Source: Catajapyx aquilonaris | Taxonomy: Eukaryota | Length of the DNA: 39,045 nt | Assembly (NCBI GenBank): GCA_000934665.2 | Contig: KZ538949.1 | Span: 1-39,045 of the forward strand | Direction of reading: 5' to 3' | In this document: in pieces, positions 4,886-37,350 of the stretch | How positions within the stretch are numbered: the stretch's first letter is position 1 | How the letters are laid out: every line of letters begins with the position of its first letter | The notes under the pieces: model-generated | The model's database searches: none | Seen by the model: only the letters and a program-made list of their open reading frames with translations | Told to the model about the DNA's origin: nothing | Program-made: the position numbers and the translations under genes

Positions 4886-5525
4886 GAGACAGTCCCCGTC
4901 TTACAGTACGTACCTCCGCCACGTATTACAGTATAGATTCAGACTTAGGTATGCCTATTTTTTAAAATTCTATATGCGGAAACAAATTCCACGAAACTCC
5001 AAATGCCGGCTATTGCGGAAACACGCGTTTTTCTGCTCGTGGCAACACTAACCAGCCCGCTCCACGTACGAGATTCTCGCATACGAGGAGCCGCGAGGAG
5101 CCAACTGCCCATGCCCAGATACGAGGAAAGGAGGAAAAAGTTGAAAATTTTCAACTTTTTCCCCTTTCCTAGTATCTAGGCATGCGCAGTTGGCTCCTCG
5201 CGGCTCCTCGTATGTGAGAATCTCGTACGTGGATACCAGCCTTTATTTCCTTACTCACAAGTTTGTCAGTTTACACGTGACAGAATAGACAGACATTTGC
5301 GACCCCGCTTCTGGCCCTCGCGGGGAACACATTCCCGTTCGCAATTGCCTCAACTGAGTACTACGACAGTGACTCCAATAGAGATATACTCAAGGATGTA
5401 TACTGTACACGTACAGTACGAGTACAGTGCAGTATAATGTGTAATAAAAAAACAGGTTTCGAGTTACGCAAAATCGACTTGCGTGTAATGTTAAGGAACG
5501 ATCCACGTAAGTGGGGGACTGCCTC
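4886..5525. mobile_element. Tigger/pogo-like non-autonomous DNA element, TA TSD
   Basis: Left end TA-GAGACAGTCCCCGTCTTAC and right end GTAAGTGGGGGACTGCCTC-TA form an imperfect TIR of ~19 bp. Confidence 0.5.
5061..5233. repeat. 173-bp imperfect palindrome (hairpin-type MITE) nested in the 4886-5525 element
   Basis: TCCACGTACGAGATTCTC...GAGAATCTCGTACGTGGA, centred on GTTGAAAA|TTTTCAAC, with a few mismatches and a small indel. Confidence 0.85.
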
Positions 5526-6028: not shown

Positions 6029-6538
6029 CAAGGGGGTAATCACTTCGGTACTCCGGTGTACACCTGGGAGTGGTACTCCCTGGTACTCCTCAGGCACCTC
6101 ACTCTTTATTACTCCGTGGTAAGGGGAGACTGAGTGGCGCCGCGGTAACGTGCGCGCCCACGGATGTTAAGGTCCCGGGTTCGATCCCAGCCCGGGGACA
6201 CCCCCTTCATCTCGTGCAGAGTTTAGGGCCATCTCTGACTTCGTCTAGGGTGGTATTTCCTATAGACTAAACCACCCAGGGGAGCTCACAAAATGACCAC
6301 ATATGTCATTGCACTGCACTTGCACATCCCCTCCTGTCATCCTCCCTATCGCTCGCGGTACCCGGGCGTTACGGCAAAAGGACCAACTGTATCAAGCTTG
6401 TACAAATTTAAGCATAAATAAAGGTACTGTGCCGATGCCCTAGGGCGGTGCACTAAGCCCCAATTATTTATTACTCCGTGGTACTCCTTGAATTTGGTAC
6501 TCCAGTGTACACTTTTCAGTCGAGTGATTACCCCCTTG
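6029..6538. mobile_element. MITE with 16-bp TIR CAAGGGGGTAATCACT and 8-bp TSD (hAT/P-type), interrupted by a SINE
   Basis: TSD GCTGCTGT at 6021-6028 and 6539-6546, internal GGTACTCC repeats, and an uninterrupted relative at 37189-37350. Confidence 0.88.
6122..6466 (+). mobile_element. tRNA-derived SINE, family A, copy 1
   Basis: A-box TGGCGCCGCGG, B-box GGTTCGATCCC, and 17-bp TSD TTTATTACTCCGTGGTA (6105-6121 / 6467-6483). Confidence 0.9.
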
Positions 6539-9519: not shown

Positions 9520-9836
9520 TGCATTACCCCATTGGGAGTTACATTTCCTTTAGGGGGGTGGAATACCACCATTTGGGTGGAACCGGTATACTAAGATAGT
9601 ATTTAGTGTGTTCCAAGGGTAGGTAGGAGGGGATGTGCAAAGTGCGTGTGCAATGTCGTTGATGTGCCGTTTTGTGAACTCCCCCGGGTGGCATATGTGG
9701 AAGGATCGCCACCCGAAACGAAGCCAGAGACGGTCTCACTCTGCGCGAGATGAAGGGGGGAACCCCGGGTTGGGATCGAACCCGGGACCTTAACATCCGC
9801 GGGCGCATACGTTACCGCAGCGCCACTTCGCCTCCC
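9447..9836 (-). mobile_element. tRNA-derived SINE, family A, copy 2, with (TA)n tail
   Basis: Head and body are homologous to the 6122 copy. TSD CAACTAACTTATAT (9433-9446 / 9837-9850). Confidence 0.88.
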
Positions 9837-10249
9837 CAACTAACTTATATTACACTTGACGAAGACGGTGGTACTGAATCCTCTTAATTGAGTTTACGAA
9901 ACAGAAGCCTCTTTGTGCATTGGAAATCGTTCGCGTAAAGCGGAATTCCAAGTAAGTCTTACATATTTAATCAATCTAAGTTTTCAAGGAAACTGAAAAC
10001 GTATAAGGTGAACAATTTCCATTTTGCTCTCAATTAAAAAATTACACAATAAAACAATTCTGAAAACAATATAAGCTTAAGTTTCATAAATGACGAAAAG
10101 AGACATACAATTTTGTAAAGTGTGCTTGCAGCCTGTCACTCAGTTAGTTTCATCCCGTTGGTAAAGCTTATTTCAGTTGTAATACAGCAGTAGAGTAGAT
10201 AAAATGTACCGACGCGACGTATTCGACTTAAGAGTAATATAAATTTATA

Positions 10250-10796: not shown

Positions 10797-10863
10797 TATT
10801 ATCATGTGATGGAGTGAAAAGAAGTTGATGGATTCTCTCCGTATTTGAGTGAGTTTTGAGTGA

Positions 10864-11069
10864 GCAAAGTGCATGTGCAATGTCTCTAACGGTCATTTTG
10901 TGAGCTCCCCCGGGTGACTTAGTCTGTCGGAAATTGCCACCCGAAATGAAGCCAGAGATGGCCCAACTCTGCCCGGATAAAGGTGGGAACCCCGAGTGGG
11001 GATCGAACCCGGGACCTTAATATCCGTGGGCGCGAGCGTTACGGTACCGCTGCGCCACTTCACCTCCCC
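10864..11069 (-). mobile_element. tRNA-derived SINE, family A, copy 3 (3'-truncated)
   Basis: GGGGAGGTGAAGTGGCGCAGCGGTA...GGTTCGATCCC head. The body matches 9637-9836. Confidence 0.88.

Positions 11070-11143
<74 letters not shown>
11070..11143. repeat. (AAT)n microsatellite
   Basis: Read directly. It is the source of the poly-I/N/Y ORFs in the track. Confidence 0.95.
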
Positions 11144-11939: not shown

Positions 11940-12695
11940 TTAGAAAGCCTTAAGGCCATAGGCGCCGGCGAAGGCGGGGGCGTATCCGCCATAGTGAGCT
12001 CCGTATCCACCATAGTGAGCTCCGTATCCGTAAGCGGGGGCAGCGAAGGCTGGGGCATGGGCCACGGCCGGAACAATAGCCTTGGCCACGGGAGCCACGG
12101 CCACAGCAGAAGGATGGCGCACGAACGAGCTATGGCTGTATCCGGTCACGAGGGGAGCCTTGGCGACAACGGGAGCATGGGCGACGGCGACTGGGGCATG
12201 GGCAACTGCGACAGGGGCAGCATGGGCGACAGCTACGGGAGCATGGTGCACAAGAGGGGCGGCATGGTGCACGAGAGGGGCGGCATGGGCGACAGCTACG
12301 GGAGCATGGTGCACAAGAGGGGCAGCATGGGCGACAGCAATTGGAGCAGCGTGGTAAGCGGCCACTGGAGCACCAATGTATCCAGGGGCGCCAAGGTATC
12401 CAGCAGAGGCAACGGCCACCAGGGCAGCGAGGATCACCTGTACAACGGGAGAATTGCAAACGCCAACCGCATTGCTGGCAACAACCCCTAGTTTCACAAC
12501 AGAAAGTCCCCCACTCCCTAGTGACGCGACTCAGTCAATGCCCTTTGCTGGGAATCGAACCCAGATCCACTACTAAGGTAAGCAGTGTGTTCTGCCATTA
12601 AACTACAAAGGCGCGTGGGATGAGTATGCTGTCACAACTGAACCCTAAGTCCGTACCCCCCAACCTCCTTCCCTGCCACTCACCAGCTTGTACAT
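11940..12695 (-). CDS. Low-complexity Ala/Pro/Val/His-rich cuticular protein (no R&R domain), 169 aa; exons 12695-12684 and 12437-11940
   Basis: ATG TAC AAG CTG|GTGAGT, then a 246-nt intron ending tacag|GTG ATC CTC. Signal peptide [24 protein letters not shown] repeats, GYG-rich C-terminus, TAA at 11942-11940. TATA and AATAAA are at the expected positions. Confidence 0.93.
12540..12612 (-). ncRNA. Intronic tRNA-like cloverleaf homologous to 36308-36378
   Basis: The minus strand reads GCCTTTG TA GTTT AATGGCA GAAC A CACTGCT TACCTT AGTAGTG GAT CTGGG TTCGATT CCCAG CAAAGGG C. This gives a 6-bp acceptor stem, a D-stem, a 7-bp anticodon stem and a T-arm identical to the other copy. Confidence 0.7.
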
Positions 12696-12761
12696 GACTG
12701 CGGTTAATGGAATCAAAAACTGGCTGCTGGGTCAAGTTGTTGTGATGCTTGCAGTTAGAAC

Positions 12762-12798
12762 GACTGTGCTCTGCCACATCGGGCTGCACACCTTTATA
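12762..12798 (-). promoter_or_regulatory. Core promoter of cuticle gene 1: TATAAA (12798-12793) and Inr-like ACAGTC (12767-12762)
   Basis: TATA lies ~31 nt upstream of a motif resembling the arthropod TCAGT initiator and ~100 nt upstream of the ATG. Confidence 0.65.
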
Positions 12799-21828: not shown

Positions 21829-23053
21829 ATGTACAAGCTGGTGAGTCACTTCTTGGTTAGAAGGGTTGCTTGGTGTGCAGGATAACGCTCAGGTTTTGGG
21901 AAAAGTGTAGCCTATAGCATACCTGTTTTTTATTCAAGAGCTTGGGTGTTTGTTCATAAGGGTTTTGATTAGATGGATAGTTCATTATCGTAATTAAATG
22001 AACACAAAAGATTTTATGCATCCAGTCGCCTTGGCGGAAGGGTTCATTTATAAAGCAAGCATTGGGTAGGATCCACAGAGTGGGGAATCAAATCAAATCA
22101 ACAAACAAATGTAGGCGCTGGCGCGCTTCAAAGGGGATCGCCTCATGTTGCACAATTATGGCACCTTTTAATTAGAGTATCGTTTGACACAGTGCCAATT
22201 CAATGGAATTCTTTCCACGCGGAGGCATTCCACTCACGAGTGTTAATGTAAATGCCACTTTCCCAATGAATAGAGTGAATACATAGAGGTGAATGTTAGG
22301 TAAGGGTACATCCAGGCGTTTTGAATTTTTATATTAAAAACTGTTTATTCCACGCTGAAATTCTTATTCTGTTGAAAAGCAGAGCAGTTTCTAAATCGGC
22401 AGGCGGATTGTCAAGTTTTTAAAAGTACTGTAAGGGTCTTACCATGATCCCATTAGCATTTATGAGCCATTTCTGGAGAGGTAAAAGCGGTGCCATACAC
22501 AAAAATTGTCACAAACTAGAAAAAGTCATATTTTGGCACATTTTGCGCCACTGATTCACTCGATTCACTGAAACATATTAGATATGTGGACCTAGGAGGA
22601 ATACATTATCAAAAATCTCTTTTCAAGGTGGTCTTCGCTGCCCTGATTGCTGTGGCTGCTGCCCGCCCTGGATTCTTGGGCACAGCAGTCCATCATGCCC
22701 CTGTTGTCCACGCTGCCCCTGTTGTCCACGCTGCCCCTGTTGTTCATGCCGCCCCTGTGGCTGTGTCGCACGCCCACACTCATCACATCGCCCGCACTGC
22801 CCATGTTGTCCATGCTGCCCCAGCTGTGGTCCATCATGCCCCTGTGGTCCATCATGCCCCTGTGGTTCATCATGCCCCTGCTGTTGTTCACGCTGCTGCC
22901 CCTGCAGTTGTGACCCACCATAGTACTTCTGCCTTTGTTCATCATGCCCCAGCTGTGGCTGCTGTCCACCACGTCGCCCCCGTCGTCACCGGGGTCCACC
23001 ACTATGCCGCACCTCTCCATCATGGTCATCATGGTTTCGCCAAGGTTCACTAA
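21829..23053 (+). CDS. His-rich low-complexity cuticular protein, 145 aa; exons 21829-21840 and 22628-23053
   Basis: ATG TAC AAG CTG|GTGAGT, then a 787-nt intron ending ttttcaag|GTG GTC TTC. Signal peptide MYKLVVFAALIAVAAA, (V)HHAPVV/HAAPVV repeats, 31 His by hand count. TATAAA at 21730 and AATAAA at 23115. Confidence 0.93.
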
Positions 23054-23120: not shown

Positions 23121-25053
23121 CTGCGATTGTCATCCTCAATTCAATTCGAGTTTTATTGTATTGTTTACAGGTTACTGTGTGACATCGTACGTACGGTGAA
23201 AAGAGATGGGTTGTGGGAATGCATTACCTGATCCCCTTAAAGGTGCTCAGGGATATCTCAATACAATGCGAAAAAGATTTCCATGATGCCACTCATCGTA
23301 TACTATAGGGTAAGGTATTCCAGTGGGGGAAAAAATAAATCGGATGTAACCGCTTCAAAGAATTCCTGATAAGGACTAGGGTATGAGTAATTCCATGCGC
23401 TCCCAATTACACAAATCTACTACAAATAGTCTTTTGAGCACAACTTTAGTCCAGTCTATAGTTGGAAGGATACTGTCGAATGAAGACTATAGAGCTGTGG
23501 CTACAAAAAAATAATAACAAAACATTCCTTTTTCTGGGTATTTTCCCTTAAGTCCAAGTTTTGTTACTTGGAAGTAAAGCCTGACAAACGATTCCAGCCT
23601 TTTGAAACATCTTTCGAGTTGACATAGTACCAACCATCTCCCAACCTTTAGACAGTCCTCCCTTTAGTCCTTGTAACTTTATAACCGTCGGATTTCAGAC
23701 GTTTTTAGGGCAAAATTCCTTCCTTTGTAGCTTTGCTTCACCTACATTGCAGAAGGTCAGTTTTAAATCTCAAAGTGAAAGGAAGCAAACTGTCTAAATA
23801 GGTGGATTTCCTTGAGTGAGAATCTTTTTTACGGACTTCCAGATCACAATAATTAGGTCCCAATCAATCGGTGATAACAGTGTTTACATAAACACTGTTT
23901 GCCATGCCAACTCTCCGTGCCATAACGGAATAGGCAAGTGTTTAATGACAGCATTGAAATAATTATTGTACCTCCCTTCCTCCCGACCTCAAAGCCTATC
24001 CGACTCAAGATGGCAGCAAGTTTCCGCATAACCCAAGTTTATTGCGCAACATTTCATCAGACACTATACTACCCAGACAAGTAATTAGTGCGATGCGGGA
24101 ATTCGCAATGCGAAATGGAAGCAACTCTATTTTTTATGTCCTCTAAAGCTATAAAGCACATTACAGCTCATTATAAAAGTCCAGGTACGCATTCACTGGC
24201 GTCGTATACATGTGCATGCGGAGCCATATTGTAAATCTCACAAACTGCAAGGGTAGTTGACAGGCAAGAAATGCCAGCGTTGTCTTCGCGAAATAAATTG
24301 CCGCACGTTCTTCCCTCCAGCAGTCACAGGGATGGTCACATGTGGAACTGCAACTCCTCAAGACTGACACTATTCCTGCAAGGTGAACTACTATTTGGAA
24401 TGCCCGTATGTTTTTTTGTGATGACGACAATGGCTCAAAAGTGTGACATTAACCAAAATAGGCTGAGTAACTTTTATTAATGATATTTCTAACACATAAA
24501 GGGAGGACATGATGTCAAGACCTAGCCATAATTTCTCGCGAAATGTGTTTGCAAATTTATAGAGGGAGCATTTGCCATTTACAGGTTTTCATAATTTCAT
24601 CAGAGGGGCGGGGGCTATTAGGATCTGTGAGAAAATAGTTACAAAATCAGTAAAATATTCACCTTCAGAAAATATCGAATAATACAATGCTATACTGCTA
24701 TTATAGTGTTTATGTTTGAGCACATTGACATTGAATGTGTCCTTATAGCAACCACAGATCATTCATTTTTATACCCCTTCTTTCCGTGTAATAATGCGCA
24801 GGTGAAGTAGCAGTATTAACCAAATACCTTTTGAGTATTACAATTTGTGTACTAATAGATACGGTACCATAAAAATAAACATTATTGCATTACAACTCAT
24901 GCACAACGGAGCTCTAATGAGTGATTTGGCTCCAAGACTGGTGTTCTGCAACAATAATATAAAATTGATGAAATCGTTATTTAATTAAAATGAGGTGTAA
25001 TGTTAGAATGTAACATTAATGTAAAATCTTGTCAGTAATATATTACTGATGTA

Positions 25054-25407
25054 GAGGGAGACGGAGTGGCGCTGCGGTAACGTATGCGCCCACGGATGCT
25101 AAGGTCCCGGGTTCGATCCCAGCCCGGGGACACCCCCTTCATCTCGTGCAGAGTTCGGGGTCATTTCTGGCTTCGTCTCGGGTGGTATTTCCAATAGACT
25201 AAACCACCCGGGGGAGTTCACAAAATGACCACAGCTACGACATTGCACTGCACCTTGCACATCCCCTCCTGTCATCCTGCCCGTGGGCCCGGGCTTTCAT
25301 TAAATAGGCACCATGTACTTAACAACTTAAAATACAATAAAGGTCCATGCTATATACCCCGGAAGGGGTGAAAGCATTACCCACATATTATATTATTATT
25401 ATTATAT
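25054..25407 (+). mobile_element. tRNA-derived SINE, family A, copy 4, with (TAT)n tail
   Basis: A and B boxes present, body close to the 6122 copy, 13-bp TSD TATTACTGATGTA (25041-25053 / 25408-25420). Confidence 0.9.
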
Positions 25408-36239: not shown

Positions 36240-36983
36240 ATGTACAAGCTCGTAAGTTATCCGTGGGTAGCAGCGGGTTGGCCGGTTGTGTGGACATGCG
36301 GTCTCAAGCCGCGGTAGTTCAGTGGCAGAACACACACTCAAGCAGTGTGGAACCTGGGTTCGATTCCCAGCTGTGGCCGGCCGGCATGTACCAAGTGGAA
36401 GTGTGACATTGGACGTAGCCGGTAAGACCTGCATATCAAGGCTCTCCGGCTGCGTCCAATCAGTGGCAACTTCAGGCATCATTTGAGACATTTATTGCTG
36501 CTAAATGACGTTTATCCACAGGCAATCTTCCTCGCGGTGGTGTCCGTGGCCTACGCTGGAGCTCCCCTGGCCGCCCCAGTGGGATACGCCGCCCCTTATG
36601 CCGCCCATTACGCCGCCCCTTACGCTGCACCTTATGCCGCATACGGTGCCGCATACGGTGCCGCATATGCTCCATATGCAGCACACGCCGTTGCTGCCCC
36701 AGTAGCCTATGCTGCACCAGTGGCCAAGGTTGCTGCTCCAGTCCTGGCTGCCCCAGCTTACCACGCATATGCCGCCCCAGCAGTGGCTAAGATTGCCGCT
36801 CCAGCATTCACCTATGCCGCACCCGTGGCCAAGGTAGCTGCCCCTGTTGCCGTCGCCCATGCTGCTCCTCTGGCTTATGCTGCACCAGTGGCTAAGGTTG
36901 CTGGTCCCGCCTACGGTTACGGCCTTGGCTATGGCGCCCATTATGGTGCCCACCACTATGGCGCCTATGGTGCCTTTTTGTAA
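36240..36983 (+). CDS. Ala/Tyr-rich (YAAP, AAPVAKV) low-complexity cuticular protein, 157 aa; exons 36240-36251 and 36522-36983
   Basis: ATG TAC AAG CTC|GTAAGT, then a 270-nt intron ending ccacag|GCA ATC TTC. Signal peptide MYKLAIFLAVVSVAYA, YAAP/AAPVAKV repeats, GYGLGYG C-terminus. TATAAA at 36153. Confidence 0.93.
36308..36378 (+). ncRNA. Intronic tRNA-like cloverleaf (tRNA-Gly-like scaffold, non-canonical anticodon loop TCAAGCA)
   Basis: Acceptor GCCGCGG/CTGTGGC, T8A9, D-stem GTTC/GAAC, anticodon stem CACAC/GTGTG with a 7-nt loop, 4-nt variable loop, T-arm CTGGG-TTCGATT-CCCAG. All four stems pair fully, allowing G-U. Confidence 0.75.
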
Positions 36984-37188: not shown

Positions 37189-37350
37189 CAAGGGGTTAAC
37201 CACTTCAGTACTCCTGTGTACACCTGCAGTGGTACTCCCAGGTACTCCTTTACTACTTAGGTACATTACTCTTTGGTACTCCTTGGTAGGCCCTACTCCT
37301 TGAATTTGGTACTCCAGTGTACACTTTAAAGTCGAGTGGTTAACCCCTTG
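37189..37350. mobile_element. Uninterrupted copy of the CAAGGGG-TIR MITE family (162 bp)
   Basis: TIR CAAGGGGTTAACCACT/AGTGGTTAACCCCTTG, internal GGTACTCC repeats shared with 6029-6538, and a degraded 8-bp TSD ACGAGGTC/CGTAGGTC. Confidence 0.85.

What the first reader, a model, noticed from the sequence alone, without database searches (positions are those of the whole stretch)
12540..12612. Second intronic tRNA mimic has an extended 7-bp anticodon arm with a 6-nt loop
Seen: in cuticle gene 1 the element has a CACTGCT/AGTAGTG stem with a TACCTT loop, a 3-nt variable region and a G-G mismatch at pair 1-72, yet intact D- and T-arms. This geometry is incompatible with normal decoding, but the added bases are paired. 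Inference: the anticodon arm tolerates length change provided it stays a hairpin, as expected for a structure recognised through its elbow and acceptor stem rather than by the ribosome. The third paralogue (21841-22627 intron) has no clear copy and so provides a natural control.
Basis: partly seen in the sequence, partly recalled or inferred. Interest (0 to 1): 0.7.

Follow-up and report, generated by a model that had tools for sequence, protein, structure and literature searches.

The report
tRNA-shaped element in cuticle-gene intron
A short tRNA-shaped sequence that cannot read codons lies in the first intron of a cuticle-type gene and of a very old sister gene; it looks preserved by selection, but no RNA data show what it does.

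Summary
Window 12540-12612 (- strand) scores as tRNA (Rfam 39.8 bits, threshold 29) and folds as a cloverleaf. It has a 7-bp/6-nt anticodon hairpin, a 3-nt variable region and a G-G clash (or bulged G) at the acceptor end.

It lies on the sense strand in the 246-nt intron that follows the fourth codon of a secreted Ala/Pro/Val/His-rich cuticle-type gene. A related element (36308-36378) lies in the same intron of a paralogue. The third paralogue has none.

The paralogues are old. Intron flanks, promoters and UTRs align no better than shuffles, yet the two elements keep identical T-arms and near-identical D-arms. Five stem pairs changed on both sides and still pair.

Contigs of the source sample show a small stand-alone family of about seven near-full-length copies, not a SINE. 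There is no Pol III terminator downstream and no target-site duplication.

Best reading (0.4): a conserved non-decoding tRNA look-alike acting as RNA in the host transcript, probably cut out by RNase P/Z, as with GUT15 or mascRNA. No RNA data or orthologues were available, so this is untested.

The scan noted similar sense-strand intronic look-alikes elsewhere in this genome (e1-7500675, e1-7682259).

The parts
12540..12612 (-). el1: non-decoding tRNA look-alike, 73 nt (74 nt if 12539 is taken as discriminator)
   Evidence: ARAGORN; Rfam RF00005 at 39.8 bits; cloverleaf fold
12567..12587 (-). extended anticodon arm of el1: 7-bp stem CACUGCU/AGUAGUG with the 6-nt loop UACCUU (12575-12580)
   Evidence: read; fold; pair list
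12438..12683 (-). first intron of gene 1 (246 nt, GTGAGT...ACAG, phase 0 after codon 4); el1 starts 71 nt into it
12684..12695 (-). coding part of exon 1 of gene 1 (ATG TAC AAG CTG = MYKL)
11940..12437 (-). exon 2 coding part of gene 1 with its stop codon: rest of the signal peptide plus Ala/Pro/Val/His-rich repeats
   Evidence: named relatives are insect cuticle proteins; no Pfam family
12793..12798 (-). TATAAA about 100 nt upstream of the gene 1 ATG
   Evidence: read
36308..36378 (+). el2: sister tRNA look-alike in the same intron of paralogue gene 2
36252..36521 (+). first intron of gene 2 (270 nt, GTAAGT...ACAG, same phase and position); el2 starts 56 nt into it
36522..36983 (+). exon 2 coding part of gene 2 with its stop codon
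21841..22627 (+). first intron of paralogue gene 3 (787 nt, same position), which carries no tRNA look-alike

Best explanation
el1 is a nuclear-type tRNA look-alike that cannot decode. It belongs to a small family of stand-alone, cloverleaf-sized elements.

It most likely already lay in the signal-peptide intron before cuticle-type genes 1 and 2 diverged. It has been kept since as an L-shaped fold with a working acceptor/T-arm stack and elbow.

The most likely mechanism is at the RNA level, inside the host's own Pol II transcript:
- The cloverleaf folds in the intron.
- tRNA end-processing enzymes recognise it by shape: RNase P at 12612, RNase Z near 12540, and perhaps the CCA-adding enzyme.
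- They release it as a small RNA of about 73 nt, from the excised intron or in competition with splicing.
- The anticodon arm serves only as a spacer hairpin, so its length and sequence are free to vary.

Shown here: sequence, fold, strand, position in the gene, the sister copy, covariation, family size, and the absence of a terminator and of target-site duplications.

Inferred: vertical inheritance with selection, transcription by way of the host gene, cleavage, and any effect on the host gene.
For: 1. It is a tRNA-class fold on the gene's strand. The sense strand folds better than the antisense strand in both elements: -22.8 against -17.8 and -26.6 against -20.6 kcal/mol.

2. The host genes are old paralogues.
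- Exon-2 proteins align only over short low-complexity stretches (E 5e-04 and 0.004).
- Intron flanks of gene 1 against gene 2 score no better than shuffles: upstream 425 of 500 and downstream 498 of 500 shuffles reach the observed score. For the elements themselves, 0 of 500 do.
- Promoters, 3' UTRs and gene 3's intron show no similarity either.

3. el1 against el2 (alignment, 84% mean column identity):
- Of 22 equivalent stem pairs, 15 are unchanged, 1 changed on one side, 5 changed on both sides and still pair, and 1 is non-standard (G1-G72 in el1).
- By my own arithmetic, five doubly changed pairs all staying pairable has a chance of about 0.013.
- The tertiary 15:48 pair also covaries, A:U against G:C. 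That is my reading of the sequences and rests on textbook tRNA structure.

4. Family size. In each of three runs of one DNA sample, about 256 Mb of contigs, 12 contigs were laid.
- One is the locus itself.
- Eleven match only inside 12542-12622.
- Six of those are near-full-length: 62-70 nt, 6-11 mismatches, 2-4 gaps. One of them must be el2.
- The flanks of the copies are all unlike one another.
- In one other copy the loose ends give a fully paired acceptor, GCUCUUG/CAAGGGC. That is again a two-sided change relative to el1.

5. There is no run of four or more T between el1 and the host's stop codon. After el2 the first T5 is 596 nt on. The 40 nt upstream of both elements are G+C-rich. An autonomous Pol III gene is therefore unlikely.

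6. Precedents:
- GUT15 tRNA-like. It is intron-encoded, has a non-canonical anticodon arm, is made from a Pol II transcript, carries CCA and is not Pol III-transcribed (PMC6152437; abstract and Discussion read).
- mascRNA. I know it only as cited in that Discussion.
Against: - No RNA evidence of any kind. No RNA run was listed, and only DNA contigs could be laid.
- No orthologous intron from another species could be fetched, so selection is inferred from two paralogous copies only.
- By global alignment el1 and el2 are 74% identical. That is only modestly above the highest of 300 pairs of unrelated tRNAs in a phage array (69%, mean 55%). They could descend from different family members.
- In the whole-intron minimum-energy folds the acceptor stems are replaced by other pairings. 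Intron 1 as a whole is no more stable than shuffles (z -0.08).
- el1 has a defect at the very pair next to the expected RNase P site.
- The D and T arms are invariant in sequence and do not covary. That points to sequence-specific DNA or protein recognition as much as to shape.
- Gene 3 does without the element.
- Cleavage before splicing would destroy the host mRNA.
Confidence: 0.4

Rival explanations
1. Neutral relic. el1 and el2 are tRNA pseudogenes or copies of a tRNA-derived repeat with no role. They either inserted separately or were inherited, and they have stayed intact by chance or by gene conversion from functional family members elsewhere.
For: - The genome holds other tRNA-derived repeats. 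Two SINE-like copies lie within 3 kb of gene 1.
- Earlier notes report more tRNA look-alikes in other genes.
- el1 carries a G-G clash or a bulge in the acceptor stem.
- Gene 3 lacks the element.
- Other genomic copies are as close to el1 as el2 is, or closer.
- el1-el2 identity is only modestly above the tRNA background.
Against: - Flanks, promoters, UTRs and proteins of the two host genes have diverged to noise, while the elements keep 15 of 22 pairs unchanged and 5 more compensated.
- The family has only about seven near-full-length copies in about 256 Mb. Two random insertions into the same ~250-nt intron of two paralogues, on the same strand, would be very unlikely.
- No target-site duplication was found. 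The longest flanking direct repeats were 6 nt and 5 nt, reached by 229 and 749 of 1000 shuffles.
- There is no SINE body or tail, because matches stop at the cloverleaf borders.
Confidence: 0.25
2. Uncleaved cis-acting intronic structure. The cloverleaf stays in the pre-mRNA and binds splicing-associated proteins that tune removal of the signal-peptide intron, as described for human nimtRNAs.
For: - Sense-strand cloverleaf with covarying stems.
- It lies 56-71 nt from the 5' splice site in two short introns.
- For nimtRNAs, the cloverleaf was required for a splicing increase, deletion of any arm lowered it, and they were reported as not processed like real tRNAs (PMC7722341; abstract and passages read).
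- The GUT15 tRNA-like also changes splicing of its host intron.
Against: - nimtRNAs derive from mitochondrial tRNAs, which lack the canonical D and T loops. el1 and el2 keep those loops, and a structure-only role would not need them.
- In that paper reverse-complement copies worked too, so the role does not explain the strand.
- Gene 3 splices a 787-nt intron at the same site without any such element.
- There are no splicing data.
Confidence: 0.15
3. DNA-level or Pol III element. The conserved D and T arms are internal A and B boxes. The element is then either a nested Pol III gene for a tRNA-like RNA or a TFIIIC-bound site about 120-230 bp downstream of the host's start site that shapes chromatin or transcription of the cuticle gene.
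For: - The T arm (18 nt) is identical and the D arm differs at only 2 positions between el1 and el2, while the other two stems covary.
- The T arm contains GGTTCGATTCC. That this is the B-box consensus is my recall.
- One stand-alone family copy has TTTT about 20 nt after its 3' end. Two single-read upstream loose ends are A+T-rich. Some members may therefore be Pol III genes.
- A same-direction arrangement avoids head-on polymerase encounters. This is inference.
Against: - There is no T4 run after el1 anywhere in the host gene, and none for 596 nt after el2.
- The upstream 40 nt are G+C-rich with no TATA-like stretch.
- A pure DNA site would not need compensated acceptor and anticodon stems or the 15:48 covariation.
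Confidence: 0.15
4. Unusual decoding tRNA. With the innermost U-A pair open, the arm has an 8-nt loop and a four-base anticodon (ARAGORN's 'acct'), as in frameshift-suppressor tRNAs.
For: ARAGORN's call.
Against: - The sister element has a different loop, 5 nt or UCAAGCA, with no U at position 33 and a pyrimidine at position 37.
- Rfam scores are low for a tRNA gene (39.8 and 49.3 bits).
- There is no terminator.
- The acceptor stem has a defect.
- Family copies vary across the loop.
Confidence: 0.02

Closest known systems
GUT15-encoded tRNA-like molecule of Arabidopsis (Plewka et al. 2018, PMC6152437; abstract and Discussion read)
   Same: A tRNA-like sequence on the sense strand inside an intron. 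Its anticodon stem-loop is non-canonical. It is produced from the Pol II host transcript and is not autonomously transcribed by Pol III. A similar copy lies in a related gene (CR20-1).
   Different: The host is a plant lncRNA and the intron is its last one. Expression, a CCA end and an effect on splicing were shown there; nothing of that kind is shown here. Here the hosts are protein-coding cuticle-type genes and the intron splits the signal peptide.
mascRNA / menRNA tRNA-like elements of MALAT1 and NEAT1 (Rfam RF01684)
   Same: A non-decoding cloverleaf within a Pol II transcript, recognised by shape by RNase P and RNase Z (as cited in PMC6152437).
   Different: Those lie at the 3' end of vertebrate lncRNAs, next to a triple helix. 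el2 reaches only 22.6 bits against a gathering score of 42.5, and el1 gives no match at E<=10. It is therefore not a member.
[quoted passage not shown] 2020, PMC7722341; abstract and passages read)
   Same: Intronic tRNA look-alikes that keep a cloverleaf despite base changes. The cloverleaf acts in cis on the host pre-mRNA.
   Different: They are of mitochondrial origin and work in either orientation. el1 and el2 have nuclear-type D and T loops, lie on the sense strand only, and belong to a small nuclear family.
tRNA pseudogenes and tRNA-derived SINEs of animal genomes
   Same: Derived from a tRNA, non-decoding, and present in several copies.
   Different: There is no tRNA-unrelated body or tail and no target-site duplication. 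Only about seven near-full-length copies exist. A true SINE-like family in the same window (9630-9850 and 10860-11080) looks quite different.

Membership tests
tRNA (Rfam RF00005) | Covariance-model score at or above the gathering score (29 bits) | tested here: met
   39.8 bits at 12539-12612 (-); 49.3 bits for the sister element
Decoding tRNA gene | 5-bp anticodon stem with a 7-nt loop, U33 and a purine at 37 | tested here: not met
   el1 has 7 bp + a 6-nt loop (or 6 + 8, or 5 + 10). ARAGORN gives no amino acid.
Decoding tRNA gene | Fully paired 7-bp acceptor stem | tested here: inconclusive
   Either G1 opposite G72 with six good pairs, or 7 pairs with one bulged G (Rfam alignment)
Decoding tRNA gene | Elbow and core tertiary signature: U8/A14, GG in the D loop, UUCGA T loop, purine 15 with pyrimidine 48 | tested here: met
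   Read from the sequences. The 15:48 pair is A:U in el1 and G:C in el2. The list of features is from textbook knowledge.
Autonomous Pol III tRNA-type gene | Run of four or more T shortly after the 3' end | tested here: not met
   No T4 between el1 and the host stop codon (600 nt). After el2 the first T5 is 596 nt on.
tRNA-derived SINE | tRNA-related head plus an unrelated body and tail, many copies, target-site duplications | tested here: not met
   Other copies match only within 12542-12622, with unlike flanks. 12 contigs were laid per run of about 890,000. Flanking direct repeats are no longer than chance gives.
mascRNA-menRNA (RF01684) | Score at or above the gathering score (42.5 bits) | tested here: not met
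   No match for el1 at E<=10. el2 scores 22.6 bits, E 2.6.
Intron-encoded tRNA-like RNA of GUT15 type | tRNA-like sequence on the sense strand inside a spliceosomal intron of a Pol II gene | tested here: met
   GT...AG intron 12438-12683 after codon 4. The element is on the gene's strand.
Intron-encoded tRNA-like RNA of GUT15 type | Stable small RNA made from the Pol II transcript, with a CCA end that is not encoded | not testable with these tools
   No RNA run was available
nimtRNA | Homology to a mitochondrial tRNA of the same organism | not tested
   No mitochondrial genome was at hand. The canonical nuclear-type D and T loops argue against it (inference).
Cuticle protein families (host gene) | Chitin-binding R&R domain (PF00379) or another curated cuticle family | tested here: not met
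   0 Pfam families for the exon-2 products of genes 1 and 2. Gene 3 has a sub-threshold PF22861 match. Of 48 proteins at E<=1e-3, the named ones are insect cuticle proteins matched over low-complexity AAPV/AHAAP stretches. 'Cuticle-type' is therefore likely but not a family membership.

The most novel reading that the evidence does not exclude
This arthropod uses sense-strand, non-decoding tRNA look-alikes in introns as a regular control module. The host pre-mRNA is offered to RNase P/Z, so that output of massively expressed moult genes (and, from earlier notes, of the RNase P subunit gene POP1 itself) is tied to the cell's tRNA-processing capacity, or yields a co-expressed tRNA-like small RNA. 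The module in the signal-peptide intron predates the divergence of these cuticle-type paralogues. Its anticodon arm is a free spacer.
Probability: 0.25. Interest if true: 0.75.

Novelty: new member of a known kind. Interest (0 to 1): 0.5.

Why it matters
Intron-embedded tRNA look-alikes with a shown role are few. I found GUT15 in a plant, nimtRNAs in human, and mascRNA at lncRNA ends.

This would be an animal case inside protein-coding structural genes, kept through an old gene duplication with compensated stems. It would suggest that shape-reading tRNA enzymes or splicing factors act on ordinary pre-mRNAs more widely than thought.

It also offers a natural experiment. Two paralogues carry the element and one in the same cluster does not.

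If it is only a relic, the case is still a useful warning. In this genome tRNA finders report non-decoding look-alikes inside genes.

Tried and rejected
- Whole genome: none is held for this window. No genome-wide census of copies, hosts and strands could be made.

- RNA evidence: no RNA holder was listed. Run X5, from another sample, had 0 contigs laid.

- Relatives in other collections. One pattern scan of metagenome contigs for the D-arm and T-arm motifs gave 5 loci.
  - In 4 of them the match lies in an ordinary tRNA: three tRNA-Asn(GTT), and one tRNA-Lys inside a 25-tRNA array.
  - In the fifth no tRNA was called at the match.
  - None is a relative of this element.

- Earlier-findings look-ups by sequence with el1 and with el2 found no look-alike windows. 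Look-ups by place found nothing near.

- SINE reading: rejected.

- mascRNA membership: rejected.

- Remnant copy in gene 3's intron: not found. The one marginal 16-nt antisense match (4 of 300 shuffles, one of four tests) I take as chance.

- Leader-trailer pairing or a downstream hairpin as a shared feature: only intron 2 has a strong hairpin (z -3.94). The stretch downstream of el1 does not (z -0.91).

- A 19-nt, 74% complementary match between gene 1's 5' UTR and the D arm of el1 has no counterpart in gene 2. I take it as chance.

- Table 3 lists differences only in the middle of the short matches, about 30 nt or more from their ends. It cannot be used to say that variation is concentrated in the anticodon loop.

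- Literature. These searches found no paper on tRNA-like elements in arthropod cuticle-gene introns:
  - 'cuticle protein' + intron + tRNA-like: 0 papers
  - 'cuticular protein' + 'intronic tRNA': 0 papers
  - tRNA + intronic + crustacean + pseudogenes + tRNAscan-SE: 3 papers, all irrelevant
  - tRNA-like + 'first intron' + arthropod: 2 papers, both irrelevant
  The library excludes most subscription journals.

Full report
**What is there**

The stretch 12540-12612 on the - strand is called a tRNA of undetermined type by ARAGORN, with a four-base 'acct' anticodon. It matches the Rfam tRNA model at 39.8 bits, where the gathering score is 29 and E is 4e-05.

Folded alone it gives a cloverleaf (-23.3 kcal/mol, z -2.08, 4 of 200 shuffles as good).
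- a 4-bp D stem with loop AAUGGCA
- a 7-bp anticodon stem CACUGCU/AGUAGUG closing the 6-nt loop UACCUU
- three bases (GAU) as variable region
- a 5-bp T stem with loop UUCGAUU
- an acceptor stem that is either six pairs plus G1 opposite G72 or seven pairs with one bulged G and A at 12539 as discriminator

No register gives a 7-nt anticodon loop, so the element cannot decode in the normal way.

**Where it lies**

Three paralogous genes in the window share one architecture. Each has a TATAAA about 90-100 nt upstream, a first coding exon of exactly four codons (ATG TAC AAG CTN, MYKL), a phase-0 GT...AG intron, and one long exon. That exon encodes the rest of a signal peptide and Ala/Pro/Val/His/Tyr/Gly-rich repeats.

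| Gene | Strand | ATG | Intron | Stop |
|---|---|---|---|---|
| 1 | - | 12695 | 12683-12438 (246 nt) | 11940 |
| 2 | + | 36240 | 36252-36521 (270 nt) | 36983 |
| 3 | + | 21829 | 21841-22627 (787 nt) | 23053 |

Pfam finds no family in the products of genes 1 and 2. A large protein search gave 48 proteins at E<=1e-3 among 8000 scored candidates. The named ones are insect cuticle proteins, matched over their low-complexity stretches. 'Cuticle-type' is therefore likely but is not a family assignment.

el1 starts 71 nt into intron 1, on the gene's own strand. A second tRNA-class element, el2 (36308-36378, 49.3 bits), starts 56 nt into intron 2, again on the gene's strand.

Gene 3's intron has none:
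- There was no tRNA match at E<=10 in two Rfam scans.
- There was no hit at E<=100 with a profile built from el1 and el2, which otherwise found only el1, el2 and weak T-arm matches in other repeats.
- Local alignments were no better than shuffles in 3 of 4 tests.
- The fourth test was a 16-nt antisense match that 4 of 300 shuffles reached. I take it as chance.

**How old the arrangement is**

The paralogues are very diverged.
- The exon-2 proteins align only over short repeat stretches (E 5e-04 and 0.004).
- Inside the introns, the sequence upstream and downstream of the elements shows no similarity between gene 1 and gene 2. For the upstream flanks 425 of 500 shuffles reach the observed score, and for the downstream flanks 498 of 500 do.
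- The elements themselves beat all 500 shuffles.
- Promoters, 3' UTRs and gene 3's intron are equally unalignable.

The element is thus the only non-coding sequence the two genes still share.

**How the two elements differ**

MAFFT gives 84% mean column identity. A plain global alignment gives 74%. The T arm (18 nt) is identical and the D arm differs at two positions.

Of 22 equivalent stem pairs, 15 are unchanged and one changed on one side (U-G to C-G). Five changed on both sides and still pair: three in the acceptor stem and two in the anticodon stem. One is the G1-G72 clash in el1.

By my own arithmetic, five doubly changed pairs all remaining pairable has a chance of about 0.013.

el2's anticodon arm is one pair and one loop base shorter (6 bp + 5 nt). 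The tertiary 15:48 pair is A:U in el1 and G:C in el2, which are the two usual combinations in real tRNAs (textbook knowledge; read).

Both elements fold better on the sense strand than on the antisense strand.

As a caution, 300 pairs of unrelated tRNAs from a phage array average 55% identity and reach 69%. The 74% figure shows relatedness, but not by a wide margin.

**The family**

No genome is held for the window, so I laid the contigs of public DNA runs on 12400-12720 at 80% likeness. Three runs of one sample, which may be the source of this DNA, each hold about 256 Mb of contigs at depth about 20-28.

In each run 12 contigs were laid:
- One covers the whole stretch without a difference.
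- The other 11 match only inside 12542-12622.
- Six of those are near-full-length: 62-70 nt, 6-11 mismatches, 2-4 gaps. One of them must be el2.
- One covers the D arm only.
- Four are not itemised. From the depth profile they cover only the T-arm half, and they may be ordinary tRNA genes.

The sequences beyond the matches differ from copy to copy, so the repeated unit is the cloverleaf alone. There is no SINE body or tail.

Flanking direct repeats at el1 and el2 are no longer than chance gives (6 nt, 229 of 1000 shuffles; 5 nt, 749 of 1000).

For one other copy the loose ends allow the acceptor stem to be read as GCUCUUG/CAAGGGC. It is fully paired, with another two-sided change relative to el1, and TTTT follows about 20 nt downstream. 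Some stand-alone members may therefore be Pol III genes.

A real SINE-like family with a tRNA-related head lies in the same window (9630-9850 and 10860-11080, 88% alike) and looks quite different.

**Which polymerase**

There is no run of four or more T anywhere between el1 and the host's stop codon. After el2 the first T5 is 596 nt on. The 40 nt upstream of both elements are G+C-rich.

This speaks against autonomous Pol III genes and for transcription as part of the host pre-mRNA. Against that, the sequence-level invariance of the D and T arms is what internal A/B promoter boxes would also produce.

**Reading**

Two copies of a family of about seven, in the same short intron of two ancient paralogues, on the same strand and without insertion scars, are best explained by presence before the genes diverged. 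Their preservation while everything around them decayed then implies selection. The compensated stems and the covarying 15:48 pair point to the RNA fold as the selected object.

The most likely mechanism is the one known for the GUT15 tRNA-like of Arabidopsis. That RNA is intron-encoded, has a non-canonical anticodon arm, is made from the Pol II transcript, is not Pol III-transcribed and ends in CCA (PMC6152437; abstract and Discussion read). The same mechanism is cited there for mascRNA. Recognition is by shape, RNase P and RNase Z cut, and the anticodon arm is a mere spacer.

I give this 0.4. The rivals are:
- a neutral relic, possibly maintained by gene conversion (0.25)
- an uncleaved cis-acting splicing element, as described for human nimtRNAs (PMC7722341; abstract and passages read) (0.15)
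- a Pol III or TFIIIC element acting at the DNA level (0.15)
- a four-base-anticodon tRNA (0.02)

Nothing here tests cleavage, expression or any effect on the host. No RNA run was listed and no orthologue could be reached.

The inference was that the arm may change length as long as it stays a hairpin. It agrees with el1 against el2, but it rests on two elements.

**Context from the scan**

Earlier notes on other pieces of this genome report the following:
- three non-decoding tRNA-shaped sequences on the sense strand in or beside chitin-binding genes, two of them in the same intron of old sister genes (e1-7500675)
- nine sense-strand look-alikes in POP1 introns (e1-7682259)
- glycine tRNA genes inside tandem Gly-rich peptide genes (e1-7595264)

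I could not see those sequences, and look-ups with el1 and el2 found no look-alike windows. These are leads, not support.

If they hold, sense-strand intronic tRNA look-alikes are a recurrent feature of this genome. My copy count argues against the 'repeated family' reading, at least for this subfamily.

**Novelty**

Four literature searches found no paper on tRNA-like elements in arthropod cuticle-gene introns. The library lacks most subscription journals.

I file the element as a new member of a known kind, intron-embedded tRNA look-alikes. The bolder reading, a shape-read control module conserved across paralogues, remains open.

Noticed in passing
window 36392-36486 (+), inside intron of gene 2: A strong hairpin begins about 13 nt after el2. 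Its core is a 15-bp stem, ATTGGACGTAGCCGG / CCGGCTGCGTCCAAT, extended to about 30 pairs. The downstream intron part has z -3.94 (0 of 200 shuffles as stable) and the whole intron z -4.46. No Rfam family matched. The layout, a tRNA-like element followed by a hairpin, recalls the viral tRNA-miRNA units of a murine herpesvirus (my recall). Gene 1's intron has no counterpart.
   Followed up: partly
window 9630-9850 (-) and 10860-11080 (-): Two copies, 88% alike over about 215 nt, of a SINE-like repeat with a tRNA-related head (GGGGAGGTGAAGTGGCGCAGCGGTA ... GGGTTCGATCCCC). They lie downstream of gene 1. One follows a long (ATT)n microsatellite. Neither reaches E<=10 for the Rfam tRNA model.
   Followed up: partly
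window 6119-6301 and 25051-25233 (+); 6482-6538 and 37294-37350: Two further dispersed repeat families (91% and 93% alike). The first contains a weak T-arm-like match to the el1/el2 profile (6166-6191, 25102-25123).
   Followed up: no
window 5087-5207: A long palindromic hairpin that matches unrelated miRNA-precursor models on both strands, far below their gathering scores (50.2 bits against 96). It is probably an inverted-repeat element.
   Followed up: no
window about 2200-2250: A run of unknown bases (N), seen as X in a translated frame.
   Followed up: no
window 12704-12722 against 12583-12601: A segment of gene 1's 5' UTR is 74% complementary over 19 nt to the D arm and 5' anticodon stem of el1, including a perfect 7-mer. 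No counterpart exists in gene 2, so it is probably chance.
   Followed up: partly
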